DNA from: Escherichia coli
GTDB lineage: Bacteria; Pseudomonadota; Gammaproteobacteria; Enterobacterales; Enterobacteriaceae
Assembly (NCBI RefSeq): GCF_003334255.1
Contig: NZ_QOWU01000013.1
Length of the DNA: 64,000 nucleotides
Direction: 5' to 3' (one strand)
Part shown: piece after piece, positions 52,047-54,238 of the stretch
Numbering within the stretch: the stretch's first letter is position 1
Layout of the letters: each line of letters begins with the position of its first letter
The notes under the pieces: generated by a model
The model's database searches: none
What the model was told of the DNA's origin: nothing
What the model saw: only the letters and a program-made list of their open reading frames with translations
Program-made: the position numbers and the translations under genes

Positions 52047-53198
52047 ATGTCACTTGTCACCGATCTACCCGCCATTTTCGATCAGTTCTCTGAAGCTCGC
52101 CAGAAAGGCTTTCTCACCGTCATGGATCTCAAGGAGCGCGGCATTCCGCTGGTTGGCACCTACTGCACCTTTATGCCGCAAGAGATCCCGATGGCAGCCG
52201 GTGCAGTTGTGGTTTCGCTCTGTTCCACCTCTGATGAAACCATTGAAGAAGCCGAGAAAGATCTGCCGCGCAACCTCTGCCCGCTGATTAAAAGCAGCTA
52301 CGGCTTCGGCAAAACCGATAAATGCCCCTACTTCTACTTTTCTGATCTGGTGGTCGGTGAAACCACCTGCGACGGCAAAAAGAAAATGTATGAATACATG
52401 GCGGAGTTTAAGCCTGTTCATGTGATGCAGTTACCGAACAGCGTTAAGGACGATGCCTCGCGTGCATTGTGGAAAGCCGAGATGCTGCGCTTGCAAAAAA
52501 CGGTAGAAGAACGTTTTGGGCACGAAATTAGCGAAGATGCTCTGCGCGATGCCATTGCGCTGAAAAACCGCGAACGTCGCGCACTGGCTAATTTTTATCA
52601 TCTTGGGCAGTTAAATCCTCCGGCGCTTAGCGGCAGCGACATTCTGAAAGTGGTTTACGGCGCAACCTTCCGGTTCGATAAAGAGGCGTTGATCAATGAA
52701 CTGGATGCAATGACCGCCCGCGTTCGTCAGCAGTGGGAAGAAGGCCAGCGACTGGACCCGCGTCCGCGCATTTTAATCACCGGCTGCCCGATTGGCGGCG
52801 CAGCAGAAAAAGTGGTGCGCGCGATTGAAGAGAATGGCGGCTGGGTTGTCGGTTATGAAAACTGCACCGGGGCGAAAGCGACCGAGCAATGCGTGGCAGA
52901 AACGGGCGATGTCTACGACGCGCTGGCGGATAAATATCTGGCGATTGGCTGCTCCTGTGTTTCGCCGAACGATCAGCGCCTGAAAATGCTCAGCCAGATG
53001 GTGGAAGAATATCAGGTCGATGGCGTAGTTGATGTGATTTTGCAGGCGTGCCATACCTACGCGGTGGAATCGCTGGCGATTAAACGTCATGTGCGCCAGC
53101 AGCACAACATTCCTTATATCGCTATTGAAACAGACTACTCCACCTCGGATGTCGGGCAGCTCAGCACCCGCGTCGCGGCCTTTATTGAGATGCTGTAA
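52047..53198 (+). CDS. yjiM: 2-hydroxyacyl-CoA dehydratase (HgdB/HadC-like) family protein
   Basis: MSLVTDLPAIFDQFSEARQKGFLTVMDLKERGIP... from ATG 52047 (GGAAGG RBS); conserved Cys residues consistent with an Fe-S site. Confidence 0.8.
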   Translation: MSLVTDLPAIFDQFSEARQKGFLTVMDLKERGIPLVGTYCTFMPQEIPMAAGAVVVSLCSTSDETIEEAEKDLPRNLCPLIKSSYGFGKTDKCPYFYFSDLVVGETTCDGKKKMYEYMAEFKPVHVMQLPNSVKDDASRALWKAEMLRLQKTVEERFGHEISEDALRDAIALKNRERRALANFYHLGQLNPPALSGSDILKVVYGATFRFDKEALINELDAMTARVRQQWEEGQRLDPRPRILITGCPIGGAAEKVVRAIEENGGWVVGYENCTGAKATEQCVAETGDVYDALADKYLAIGCSCVSPNDQRLKMLSQMVEEYQVDGVVDVILQACHTYAVESLAIKRHVRQQHNIPYIAIETDYSTSDVGQLSTRVAAFIEML

Positions 53199-53201
53199 GG
53201 A

Positions 53202-53975
53202 GTGGCAGTGGCATATTCGATTGGCATTGATTCCGGCTCAACCGCCACCAAAGGGATCTTACTGGCAGACGGCGTGATTACGCGCCGTTTCCTCGTTCCA
53301 ACCCCCTTTCGCCCGGCAACAGCAATTACTGAAGCCTGGGAAACTCTGTGCGAAGGGTTAGAAACAACGCCGTTTCTGACGCTCACCGGCTACGGACGGC
53401 AACTGGTGGATTTTGCCGATAAACAGGTGACGGAAATCTCCTGTCACGGGCTGGGCGCACGGTTTCTTGCGCCAGCAACGCGCGCAGTAATCGACATCGG
53501 TGGGCAGGACAGCAAAGTGATTCAGCTTGATGACGACGGTAACCTGTGCGATTTCCTGATGAATGACAAATGCGCGGCGGGCACCGGGCGTTTCCTGGAG
53601 GTGATCTCGCGCACGCTTGGCACCAGCATCGAGCAACTCGACAGCATTACCGAAAATGTCACGCCGCACGCGATCACGAGTATGTGTACGGTGTTTGCCG
53701 AATCAGAAGTGATCAGCCTGCGCTCAGCGGGCGTCGCGCCAGAAGCGATTCTCGCTGGAGTGATTAACGCGATGGCGCGGCGGAGTGCCAATTTCATTGC
53801 TCGTCTCTCCTGTGAAGCGCCGATTCTGTTTACTGGTGGCGTTAGTCATTGCCAGACGTTTGCCCGGATGTTGGAAACTCACCTGGGAATGCCGGTAAAT
53901 ACCCATCCTGATGCGCAATTTGCTGGCGCAATTGGCGCAGCGGTAATTGGTCAACGAGTGAGAAAACGCCGATGA
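53202..53975 (+). CDS. yjiL: BadF/BadG/BcrA/BcrD-type ATPase (activator of 2-hydroxyacyl-CoA dehydratase), GTG start
   Basis: 257-aa ORF with ASKHA-fold N-terminus IGIDSGSTATKGILL and CAAGTG motif; 3 nt after yjiM. Confidence 0.8.
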   Translation: MAVAYSIGIDSGSTATKGILLADGVITRRFLVPTPFRPATAITEAWETLCEGLETTPFLTLTGYGRQLVDFADKQVTEISCHGLGARFLAPATRAVIDIGGQDSKVIQLDDDGNLCDFLMNDKCAAGTGRFLEVISRTLGTSIEQLDSITENVTPHAITSMCTVFAESEVISLRSAGVAPEAILAGVINAMARRSANFIARLSCEAPILFTGGVSHCQTFARMLETHLGMPVNTHPDAQFAGAIGAAVIGQRVRKRR

Positions 53976-54238
53976 AAGAGTTTTTATTTTTATTTCACTC
54001 CACGGTCGGCGTCATACAAACCCGTAAGGCGTTGCAGGCAGCGGGCATGACTTTTCGCGTCAGCGATATTCCCCGTGATTTACGCGGCGGCTGCGGGTTA
54101 TGCATTTGGCTGACCTGTCCGCCCGGCGAGGAAATACAATGGGTGATCCCTGGGCAGACCGAAGCGATATATTGCCAGCAGGGCAGCGACTGGCAGTGCG
54201 TGGTGCATTACGATTCAGAAGCGTCAACCAGGCAATAA
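53972..54238 (+). CDS. small Cys-containing protein, putative DUF3343-like, translationally coupled to yjiL
   Basis: 88-aa ORF whose ATG overlaps the yjiL stop (ATGA); GC-normal composition. Confidence 0.55.
   Translation: MKEFLFLFHSTVGVIQTRKALQAAGMTFRVSDIPRDLRGGCGLCIWLTCPPGEEIQWVIPGQTEAIYCQQGSDWQCVVHYDSEASTRQ

What the first reader, a model, noticed from the sequence alone, without database searches (positions are those of the whole stretch)
52047..54238. Orphan dehydratase-like cassette: HgdB-like subunit, ATPase activator and a coupled small Cys protein
yjiM resembles one subunit of 2-hydroxyacyl-CoA dehydratases and yjiL their ATP-dependent electron-transfer activator, but no second dehydratase subunit is adjacent. 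Instead an 88-aa Cys-containing ORF is translationally coupled to yjiL (ATGA overlap). The substrate and chemistry of this radical-type enzyme set are, to my knowledge, unknown.
Basis: partly seen in the sequence, partly recalled or inferred. Interest (0 to 1): 0.5.

Follow-up and report, generated by a model that had tools for sequence, protein, structure and literature searches.

The report
Known double-cubane reductase cassette yjiML-ytiA
These three E. coli genes are the already annotated yjiM-yjiL-ytiA operon: an ATP-driven iron-sulfur "double-cubane" reductase that needs no second subunit, the ATPase that feeds it electrons, and a small cysteine carrier protein linked to selenium/sulfur handling; its natural substrate is still unknown.

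Summary
The window is E. coli ATCC 11775. It carries yjiM (52047-53198), yjiL (53208-53975) and an 88-aa ORF (53972-54238) that overlaps yjiL by ATGA. The cassette is not an orphan or incomplete dehydratase.

- **YjiM** passes the curated NCBIfam model for double-cubane-cluster anaerobic reductases (532 bits against a cutoff of 350). It matches the homodimeric DCCP structure 6ENO at E=6e-75 and keeps the family's seven cysteines. No second subunit is expected.
- **YjiL** keeps both [4Fe-4S] ligand cysteines of the DCCP reductase.
- **The small ORF** is the named gene ytiA (K-12 b4715), a DUF3343 "putative Se/S carrier" with one invariant cysteine, Cys41.

Among 80 species with YjiM orthologues, ytiA follows yjiL in all 34 gammaproteobacterial loci, mostly with the same 4-nt overlap. 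In 9 of 46 Firmicutes loci the yjiM-yjiL pair sits among selD, yedF, a selenocysteine-lyase-like gene, DUF3343 and a selenium-dependent xanthine dehydrogenase.

My best reading is an ATP-driven low-potential reductase that works with a chalcogen carrier, most likely to mobilise selenium. The literature already names YjiM as a class II DCCP and lists DCCPs as putative selenium-metabolism genes. The finding is therefore known, and only the physiological substrate remains open.

The parts
52047..53198 (+). yjiM: double-cubane-cluster (predicted [8Fe-9S]) anaerobic reductase, class II DCCP, 383 aa
   Evidence: NF040772 532 bits against a cutoff of 350. PDB 6ENO/7YYL E=5.9e-75, 39% identity. Pfam HGD-D. 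Seven motif cysteines C40, C59, C78, C108, C273, C302 and C335 are invariant in 80 orthologues and DCCP_Ch. RefSeq annotation.
53199..53202 (+). GGAG Shine-Dalgarno for yjiL, immediately after the yjiM stop codon
   Evidence: Read from the sequence. It lies 5 nt upstream of GTG 53208, the RefSeq start.
53208..53975 (+). yjiL: ATP-dependent electron-injecting activator (DCCP-R / archerase type), 255 aa
   Evidence: TIGR00241 361 bits against a cutoff of 125. Pfam BcrAD_BadFG E=2.5e-75. PDB 4EHT, 1HUX and 7YYL_E at E=1e-47 to 1e-52. C122 and C160 align with the DCCP-R [4Fe-4S] ligands C115 and C152 (PMC9351452) and are invariant in 72 sequences.
53972..53975 (+). ATGA stop/start overlap that couples ytiA translation to yjiL
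   Evidence: The same 4-nt overlap occurs in 27 of 33 gammaproteobacterial loci; the others overlap by 1, 8 or 11 nt. It is also present in K-12.
53972..54238 (+). ytiA: DUF3343 / putative Se/S carrier protein, 88 aa (85 aa in K-12)
   Evidence: Pfam PF11823 E=4.3e-13. K-12 b4715. Conserved across genera. AlphaFold2 model with pLDDT 87.7 and a ferredoxin-like fold.
54083..54103 (+). Codons for R38-G-G-C41-G-L-C44. Cys41 (TGC 54092-54094) is the family-invariant cysteine and sits on a predicted loop.
   Evidence: C41 is invariant in 18 enterobacterial sequences and in 49 diverse sequences, and is present in 85 of 89 broad family members. The loop spans residues 33-42, between strands 28-32 and 43-49 of the model.

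Best explanation
The cassette is a complete two-component double-cubane-cluster reductase plus a chalcogen carrier.

**Inferred by homology to the C. hydrogenoformans DCCP/DCCP-R system.** A YjiL homodimer holds a bridging [4Fe-4S] cluster on C122 and C160. It accepts an electron from a cellular low-potential donor and uses ATP binding and hydrolysis to push that electron onto the [8Fe-9S] double-cubane cluster of a YjiM homodimer. YjiM then reduces a substrate that ordinary reductants cannot reduce.

**Inferred from gene context.** YtiA is made in step with YjiL through the ATGA overlap. It uses the thiol of its invariant Cys41, on an exposed loop, to carry a sulfur or selenium species to or from YjiM.

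**My committed guess for the chemistry.** The system mobilises selenium reductively. Carrier-bound or elemental selenium (Cys-S-Se or Se(0)) is reduced to selenide, which SelD then uses, under anaerobic conditions.

**How sure I am of each layer.** Component identities and the electron path: about 0.9. YtiA as a functional partner that carries a chalcogen: about 0.55. Selenium specifically as the physiological substrate: about 0.35.
For: **Identity of the parts.**
- YjiM: NF040772 532 of 350 bits; 6ENO/7YYL E=6e-75; seven motif cysteines invariant.
- YjiL: TIGR00241 361 of 125 bits. It aligns with DCCP-R 7YYL_E with both cluster ligands conserved.
- PMC7317905 names YjiM/YjiL as a putative class II DCCP system. 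It reports DCCP as a homodimer that is reduced only by DCCP-R plus MgATP. PMC9351452 says the same.

**Partnership with YtiA.**
- ytiA lies immediately downstream of yjiL in 34 of 34 gammaproteobacterial loci, with the coupling conserved.
- The same three-gene order with a 4-nt overlap occurs at a DUF3343 only 35% identical to YtiA (L087).
- DUF3343 is also next to yjiM-yjiL in 5 Firmicutes loci in different gene orders.

**Link to selenium.**
- 9 of 46 Firmicutes orthologue loci place yjiM-yjiL in same-strand arrays with Se-associated genes. The families are selD (TIGR00476), yedF (TIGR03527), an EF2568/SclA-type lyase (TIGR01977), Se-dependent xanthine dehydrogenase (TIGR03311) and mocA/ygfJ.
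- These loci are scattered over the YjiM tree, and the sister clade of the gammaproteobacterial clade contains one.
- Distant DUF3343 genes sit beside YedF, SclA-like and YedE genes.
- Haft and Gwadz found that 955 of 970 NF040772 proteins are in SelD-containing assemblies.
- Lin et al. 2015 proposed DUF3343 as a Se/S chaperone, and their STRING table links it to an activase and an HGD subunit.
- duf3343 is among the top five genes that overlap selD.

**Anaerobic expression.** yjiM is listed in the Fnr regulon. It is induced together with frdAB and nrdDG on oxygen depletion.
Against: - There is no experiment on YjiM, YjiL or YtiA, and the physiological function of every DCCP is unknown.
- In E. 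coli and all 34 gammaproteobacterial loci the cassette is not next to any selenium gene.
- 37 of 46 Firmicutes orthologue loci show no Se gene within 6 kb, and 41 of 46 have no DUF3343 within 6 kb.
- DUF3343 also occurs in organisms that lack SelD, and no Se-specific subfamily could be defined (Lin 2015). Sulfur is therefore equally possible for the carrier.
- Dobbek's group suggested a CoA ester or another large substrate for class II DCCPs.
- The co-occurrence with SelD may only reflect a shared anaerobic lifestyle, a caveat the authors raise themselves.
- The very negative Se(0)/HSe- potential that makes this chemistry attractive is from my memory and was not checked here.
Confidence: 0.45

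Rival explanations
1. YjiM-YjiL is a low-potential reductase for a small or organic non-chalcogen substrate, of the kind DCCP_Ch reduces in vitro (acetylene, azide, hydrazine), or for some anaerobic metabolite. YtiA would be a redox or regulatory accessory rather than a substrate carrier.
For: DCCP_Ch reduces acetylene, hydrazine and azide in vitro. Most Firmicutes orthologues lack an adjacent DUF3343 or Se gene. The YtiA model has a generic ferredoxin-like/PII-like fold with no specific structural relative. A CxxC arrangement (C41, C44) is common in the family.
Against: The ytiA coupling is strict in 34 of 34 gammaproteobacterial species. DUF3343 is recurrently placed next to YedF, SclA-like, YedE and SelD genes. 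Both point to chalcogen trafficking rather than generic regulation. The second cysteine of the CxxC is not conserved across the family.
Confidence: 0.2
2. YtiA is a maturation factor. It delivers the ninth, bridging chalcogen (mu2-sulfide, or selenide as Haft speculated) that fuses the two cubanes of the YjiM cluster, or it repairs that bridge.
For: The cluster needs one extra bridging sulfide beyond two [4Fe-4S] units. Haft and Gwadz list a Se-bridged cofactor as a formal possibility to explain the SelD link. The carrier is co-translated with the system.
Against: 41 of 46 Firmicutes YjiM orthologues have no DUF3343 within 6 kb. Many DUF3343 genes sit in YedF/SclA/YedE modules with no DCCP nearby. 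The [8Fe-9S] cluster of DCCP_Ch was obtained by overproduction in E. coli without a cognate carrier. This last point is weak, because E. coli has its own YtiA.
Confidence: 0.12
3. One reading: YjiM is one subunit of a 2-hydroxyacyl-CoA-dehydratase-like radical enzyme acting on a CoA ester. Its partner subunit would be missing or replaced by the small Cys protein.
For: Pfam HGD-D hit. Weaker homology to HadC, BzdN and MbdN. Class II DCCPs lack the channel-closing N-terminal helices, so a CoA ester is conceivable. YjiM aligns from residue 26 to residue 62 of 6ENO.
Against: YjiM falls far below the HadB and HadC cutoffs (20 of 750 and 95 of 700) but well above the DCCP cutoff. It has the seven-Cys double-cubane motif rather than the three-Cys pattern. 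The closest solved relative is a homodimer. There is no second HGD-D gene in the window or in 80 loci. No CoA-transferase or acyl-CoA genes appear among the annotated neighbours or among the recurrent neighbour families I annotated. YtiA has no similarity to HGD-D subunits.
Confidence: 0.1
4. The 88-aa ORF is a chance ORF or a non-functional remnant, and the overlap is incidental.
For: It is short and has no NCBIfam model. Its C-terminal third is poorly conserved and lies at a synteny break.
Against: Pfam E=4.3e-13. 21 residues are invariant across genera. Variation is biased to third codon positions. It is conserved in 34 of 34 species with the coupling preserved. The fold prediction is confident. 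It is annotated in K-12.
Confidence: 0.01

Closest known systems
DCCP / DCCP-R of Carboxydothermus hydrogenoformans (CHY_0487/CHY_0488; PDB 6ENO, 7YYL)
   Same: Same NCBIfam family (NF040772). YjiM is 39% identical to DCCP_Ch, with all seven motif cysteines. The activator ATPase gene is adjacent and keeps both [4Fe-4S] ligand cysteines. The operon logic is two components with no second catalytic subunit.
   Different: YjiM is about 36 residues shorter at the N terminus, which PMC7317905 calls 'class II', with a possibly wider substrate channel. A DUF3343 carrier gene is coupled to the activator. I did not examine the C. hydrogenoformans locus for one. No biochemical data exist for YjiM.
2-hydroxyacyl-CoA dehydratases with their activators (HadBC/HadI, HgdAB/HgdC)
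   Same: Same superfamily (Pfam HGD-D) and the same type of ATP-dependent [4Fe-4S] activator. YjiL matches HadI and HgdC at E about 3e-52.
   Different: Those enzymes are heterodimers with one three-Cys [4Fe-4S] cluster per subunit and act on CoA esters. Here there is one subunit type and a seven-Cys motif. Scores are far below the HadB and HadC cutoffs, and no CoA-metabolism genes are nearby.
Class I benzoyl-CoA reductases (BzdNOPQ, MbdNOPQ; PDB 8S02, 9G87/9GAI)
   Same: They are distant homologues of both YjiM (E=1e-18 to 1e-19) and YjiL (E=6e-51). One paper title indicates that [8Fe-9S] clusters also occur there.
   Different: They are four-subunit enzymes acting on aromatic CoA esters. YjiM is far below the equivalog cutoffs (79 of 454 and 60 of 421).
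DUF3343 genes in SelD / YedF / Sec-lyase / YedE selenium modules (Lin et al. 2015; Kayrouz et al. 2022)
   Same: Same Pfam family with the same invariant cysteine. These are small stand-alone proteins, often overlapping the neighbouring gene.
   Different: In E. coli and other Gammaproteobacteria the partner is the DCCP activator rather than YedF, the Sec lyase or SelD. No selenium gene is adjacent.

Membership tests
Double-cubane cluster protein (NF040772; DCCP) | Whole-protein score above the curated NCBIfam cutoff | tested here: met
   532.2 bits against a cutoff of 350, covering model positions 1-372 of 372.
Double-cubane cluster protein (NF040772; DCCP) | Seven-Cys motif (six cluster ligands plus one nearby Cys) | tested here: met
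   C40, C59, C78, C108, C273, C302 and C335 align with the DCCP_Ch cysteines and are invariant in 80 orthologues. The spacing is 18/18/29/164/28/32 in YjiM and 18/18/29/164/31/32 in the 6ENO chain. Which six are the ligands was taken from the literature and not checked on coordinates.
Double-cubane cluster protein (NF040772; DCCP) | Adjacent DCCP-R-type ATPase gene | tested here: met
   yjiL starts 10 nt after the yjiM stop. A YjiL homologue lies within 6 kb in 71 of 80 orthologous loci.
Double-cubane cluster protein (NF040772; DCCP) | Homodimer carrying an [8Fe-9S] cluster; ATP-dependent reduction of substrates | not testable with these tools
   This needs anaerobic purification, spectroscopy or crystallography, and activity assays.
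2-hydroxyacyl-CoA dehydratase (HadBC/HgdAB type) | Two different HGD-D subunits encoded side by side | tested here: not met
   There is only one HGD-D homologue in the 64-kb window and one per locus in 80 loci.
2-hydroxyacyl-CoA dehydratase (HadBC/HgdAB type) | Score above the equivalog cutoffs for a dehydratase subunit | tested here: not met
   HadC 95.3 of 700 and HadB 20.2 of 750.
2-hydroxyacyl-CoA dehydratase (HadBC/HgdAB type) | Operon context of CoA-transferase or 2-hydroxyacid metabolism genes | tested here: not met
   The annotated neighbours are mdtM, yjiN, a pentapeptide-repeat gene, an SdiA-regulated-domain gene (yjiK in K-12) and yjiJ. None of the recurrent neighbour families I annotated is CoA-related.
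Archerase / acyl-CoA dehydratase activase (TIGR00241; BcrAD_BadFG) | Score above cutoff, and the two cysteines that bind the dimer-bridging [4Fe-4S] cluster | tested here: met
   361.2 bits against a cutoff of 125.4. C122 and C160 align with DCCP-R C115 and C152 and are invariant in 72 sequences.
DUF3343 / Se_S_carrier (PF11823) | Pfam domain match and the family's conserved cysteine | tested here: met
   E=4.3e-13, residues 4-59. Cys41 is invariant and present in 85 of 89 aligned broad family members.
DUF3343 / Se_S_carrier (PF11823) | Actual carriage of S or Se on the cysteine | not testable with these tools
   The function of the family is itself only a comparative-genomics proposal.

The most novel reading that the evidence does not exclude
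YjiM-YjiL-YtiA is the missing ATP-driven step of bacterial selenium assimilation. The double-cubane reductase would reduce selenium held on the Cys41 thiol of YtiA (Se(0) or perselenide) to selenide for SelD. That would give DCCPs their first physiological function, and in a genetically tractable organism. A variant of the same idea is that YtiA supplies a bridging Se or S atom to the cluster itself.
Probability: 0.3. Interest if true: 0.75.

Novelty: already known. Interest (0 to 1): 0.33.

Why it matters
The physiological role of double-cubane cluster proteins has been an acknowledged open question since their discovery in 2018. E. coli carries a conserved, anaerobically expressed member with a dedicated Se/S carrier. 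Its close orthologues in Firmicutes sit inside SelD/YedF/Sec-lyase clusters. This gives a concrete hypothesis that could be tested with simple E. coli genetics and 75Se labelling. As a genome-scan finding, however, it adds little. All three genes are named and correctly annotated in RefSeq, YjiM is cited in the literature as a class II DCCP, and DCCPs are already listed as putative selenium-metabolism genes.

Tried and rejected
2. **'Rosetta-stone' fusions of DUF3343.** The longer hits from the exhaustive search are frameshifted or fragmentary yjiL-ytiA calls (P0245, P0262, P0264, P0284). P0303 is a repeat translation, and P0276/P0348 match only short repeated stretches. None is informative.
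3. **FNR site upstream of yjiM.** The only candidate is TTTATTCGTGTCAA at 51833-51846, with 2 mismatches. Such matches are barely above the shuffle expectation across the window (50 found, 35 expected).
4. **Promoter and terminator scans.** Matches were at the shuffle expectation. No promoter-like site lies between yjiN and yjiM, and no terminator-like site lies after ytiA.
5. **Rfam scan of 51500-54700.** No matches.
6. **Original DCCP paper and the yjiL-mdtM paper.** Neither was held, so ligand numbering relies on the 2020 review.
7. **Enterobacterial-only DUF3343 profile.** It missed most Firmicutes members. A broader profile built from the exhaustive search was needed.
8. **Complex prediction.** I considered using the last structure job on a fused YjiM-YtiA chain. 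I did not, because the tool returns no inter-chain error or contact information.
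Full report
**What is in the sequence**

The ORF list and the raw sequence show three same-strand genes.
- yjiM runs 52047-53198 (383 aa).
- yjiL is an ORF from 53202. A GGAG at 53199-53202 and the RefSeq annotation both favour the GTG at 53208, which gives 255 aa ending at 53975.
- The 88-aa ORF runs 53972-54238. Its ATG overlaps the yjiL TGA as ATGA.

The stretch is 100% identical to E. coli ATCC 11775. There the genes are annotated as yjiM 'double-cubane-cluster-containing anaerobic reductase', yjiL 'putative 2-hydroxyacyl-CoA dehydratase activator' and 'DUF3343 domain-containing protein'. In K-12 the small gene is ytiA (b4715, 85 aa), with the same 4-nt overlap. The region is present in 5387 of 5426 complete E. 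coli genomes.

**YjiM is a double-cubane cluster protein, not half a dehydratase**

- NCBIfam is more specific. The double_cubane equivalog NF040772 scores 532 bits against a cutoff of 350. HadC scores 95 of 700, BzdN 79 of 454 and HadB 20 of 750.
- The best solved relatives are 6ENO and 7YYL, the DCCP of Carboxydothermus hydrogenoformans, at E=5.9e-75 and 39% identity.
- The review by Jeoung, Martins and Dobbek (PMC7317905) describes DCCP as a homodimer. Each subunit carries an [8Fe-9S] cluster on six of seven conserved cysteines. The cluster is reducible only by its ATPase partner plus MgATP. The review names E. coli YjiM/YjiL as the probable 'class II' representative, which lacks the N-terminal channel-closing helices.
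- I confirmed that YjiM aligns from residue 26 to residue 62 of the 6ENO chain.
- C40, C59, C78, C108, C273, C302 and C335 match the DCCP cysteines and are invariant in 80 orthologues.
- A homodimer explains the 'missing' second subunit. There is no other HGD-D homologue in the window or within 6 kb of yjiM in 80 other species.

**YjiL is the matching activator**

YjiL scores 361 bits on TIGR00241 against a cutoff of 125. It matches HadI, HgdC, MbdQ and DCCP-R (7YYL_E) at E=1e-47 to 1e-52. YjiL C122 and C160 align with DCCP-R C115 and C152, the [4Fe-4S] ligands given in PMC9351452. Both are invariant in 72 sequences.

**The 88-aa ORF is ytiA, a DUF3343 'Se/S carrier' protein**

- It hits Pfam PF11823 at E=4.3e-13.
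- Homologues in Citrobacter, Klebsiella, Raoultella, Kosakonia, Atlantibacter and other genera are 54-79% identical.
- The N-terminal ~45 residues are well conserved and the C-terminal third is variable. The motif R-G-G-C41-G-L-(C44) is invariant up to C41-G42-L43.
- An exhaustive profile search found 118 representatives. In a 49-sequence alignment of diverse members only F8 and C41 are invariant.
- Third-codon-position diversity exceeds that at positions 1 and 2 (0.52 against 0.32 and 0.25), as expected for a translated gene.
- AlphaFold2 gives a confident ferredoxin-like model (pLDDT 87.7) with C41 in the loop between strands 2 and 3.
- PDB fold searches return only generic PII/CutA/UreE-like folds, so no solved structure of the family was found.

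**Conservation of the cassette**

A scan of one genome per species returned 583 relatives, of which the best 80 (58-97% identity to YjiM) were kept.
- A YjiL homologue lies within 6 kb in 71 of the 80 loci, usually directly downstream.
- With a broad DUF3343 profile, ytiA is found immediately after yjiL in all 34 gammaproteobacterial loci. These include Escherichia, Citrobacter, Klebsiella, Kosakonia, Hafnia, Morganella and Aeromonas.
- The stop/start overlap is 4 nt in 27 of 33 of those loci.
- In Firmicutes only 5 of 46 loci have a DUF3343 gene within 6 kb, and in different arrangements.
- A DUF3343 protein only 35% identical to YtiA (P0255) is also encoded in an HGD-D / BcrAD / DUF3343 array with a 4-nt overlap (L087).

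The association is lineage-dependent beyond them.

**Context that points to selenium**

I clustered the neighbours across the 80 loci and annotated representatives with NCBIfam. In 9 of 46 Firmicutes loci, yjiM-yjiL is embedded in same-strand arrays with five other families:
- selD (TIGR00476)
- yedF (TIGR03527)
- an EF2568/SclA-type cysteine desulfurase or selenocysteine lyase (TIGR01977)
- selenium-dependent xanthine dehydrogenase (TIGR03311)
- mocA/ygfJ

Example arrangements:

| Organism | Gene order |
|---|---|
| Clostridium intestinale | Se-XDH, yjiM, yjiL, selD, yedF, DUF3343, mocA |
| Eubacterium barkeri | mocA, sclA-like, yedF, DUF3343, yjiM, yjiL |
| Three Enterococcus species | yjiM, yjiL, Se-XDH, mocA, sclA-like, selD |

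With a single selD per genome, a 13-kb window would contain it by chance in well under 1% of loci (my estimate). Five of 46 is therefore a strong enrichment, although the loci are not phylogenetically independent. The nine loci are spread over all major Firmicutes branches of a neighbour-joining tree. The monophyletic gammaproteobacterial clade is sister to a clostridial clade that includes the C. intestinale locus. Distant DUF3343 genes sit next to YedF-like, SclA-like and YedE-like genes.

**What the literature already says**

- Lin et al. 2015 proposed DUF3343 as a Se/S chaperone. Their STRING table for Slackia links it to an 'activase' and a '2-hydroxyglutaryl-CoA dehydratase subunit'.
- Kayrouz et al. 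found duf3343 among the five genes that most often overlap selD.
- Haft and Gwadz built NF040772, named YjiM as a member, and reported that 955 of 970 family members are in SelD-containing assemblies.
- A 2023 preprint labels DCCP and DCCPR as 'selenium metabolism (putative)'.
- The two 2008 papers on the third selenium trait do not mention these genes.
- yjiM is listed in the Fnr regulon. It rises with frdAB and nrdDG when oxygen runs out in O157:H7.
- The only reported phenotype is a role of the 'yjiL-mdtM cluster' in uptake of proline-rich peptides. I could not read that paper.

**Mechanism**

- *Shown by homology:* YjiL is an ATP-dependent electron injector with a bridging [4Fe-4S] cluster. 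YjiM has the ligand set for a double-cubane cluster.
- *Inferred from homology:* electrons flow from YjiL to the YjiM cluster on ATP turnover, and YjiM then reduces a hard-to-reduce substrate.
- *Inferred from gene context:* YtiA is a stoichiometric partner that uses Cys41 to carry a chalcogen.
- *My committed guess:* the system reduces carrier-bound or elemental selenium to selenide for SelD. DCCP clusters are not reducible by dithionite or Ti(III) citrate, so the system delivers very low-potential electrons. By my recollection, not verified here, the Se(0)/HSe- couple lies near -0.7 V, far below S(0)/HS-. That would explain both the need for an ATP-driven reductase and the link to selenium rather than sulfur.
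- *Probabilities:* I put about 0.35 on selenium specifically and about 0.9 on the component identities.

They are set out separately with their evidence.

**Verdict**

The 'orphan, incomplete dehydratase' framing is not supported. This is a complete, named and correctly annotated DCCP system with its DUF3343 partner. Its membership, and its probable link to selenium, are already in the literature. What remains open is the physiological substrate. The comparative evidence assembled here makes the selenium-mobilisation hypothesis concrete and testable in E. coli.

Noticed in passing
window 54550-56643 (island about 54300-57000): A 697-aa pentapeptide-repeat protein lies between ytiA and the yjiK homologue, in a low-GC stretch (0.30-0.39 against about 0.53 for the flanks). 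Some strains annotate it as T3SS effector EspX6. It is absent from K-12, where ytiA is followed directly by yjiK.
   Followed up: partly
window 56365-56544: There are 7.5 copies of a 24-nt tandem repeat (also scored as 2.7 copies of 72 nt) inside the 3' part of the pentapeptide-repeat gene. They encode a reiterated (E/D)KQA(S/N)DS(I/T) segment.
   Followed up: no
window about 54157-54238: Similarity to K-12 decays inside the last ~25 codons of ytiA and is lost after the stop codon. Megablast matches of most E. coli genomes end at window 54182. The YtiA C-terminal tail therefore differs between lineages (88 aa here, 85 aa in K-12) and sits at the edge of a variable region.
   Followed up: partly
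window 50651-51931 (yjiN): The DUF445 gene yjiN lies upstream of yjiM. It is found within 6 kb of yjiM in 21 of 34 gammaproteobacterial loci, at varying distances, and in no Firmicutes locus. It has no NCBIfam hit. It is unclear whether it belongs functionally to the cassette.
   Followed up: partly
window 52323-52325 (YjiM C93) and 52956-52958 (YjiM C304): Beyond the seven-Cys motif, C93 is invariant in all 80 orthologues and DCCP_Ch. C304 is Cys in 72 of 82 sequences and Val in the other 10. The role of these extra cysteines is unknown.
   Followed up: no
YjiM and 6ENO chain: The published motif is CX19CX18-19CX29CX166-170CX32-34CX32C. It does not exactly fit my residue counts, which are 18/18/29/164/31/32 in the 6ENO chain and 18/18/29/164/28/32 in YjiM. 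The 'Cys94' of the review falls at chain position 95 in my count. This is probably a numbering or counting offset.
   Followed up: partly
L046-L051 (Enterococcus loci), about 7900-12100: In five Enterococcus species yjiM-yjiL is followed by a conserved set of genes. These are a divergently oriented ~213-aa membrane protein with no NCBIfam hit, an ABC ATPase, a ~539-aa multi-pass permease and a ~212-aa protein that looks TetR-like by eye. This is a different recurrent context from the selenium one.
   Followed up: no
window 51833-51846: An FNR-like sequence, TTTATTCGTGTCAA (2 mismatches to TTGATN4ATCAA), lies inside the 3' end of yjiN, about 200 nt upstream of the yjiM start. It is not statistically distinguishable from chance, although yjiM is reported as Fnr-regulated.
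   Followed up: partly
P0303 (protein representative): A 189-aa predicted protein matches the YtiA profile only through four or more copies of 'PAALRGGCGLK'. This looks like a translation of repeated DNA rather than a DUF3343 protein.
   Followed up: no
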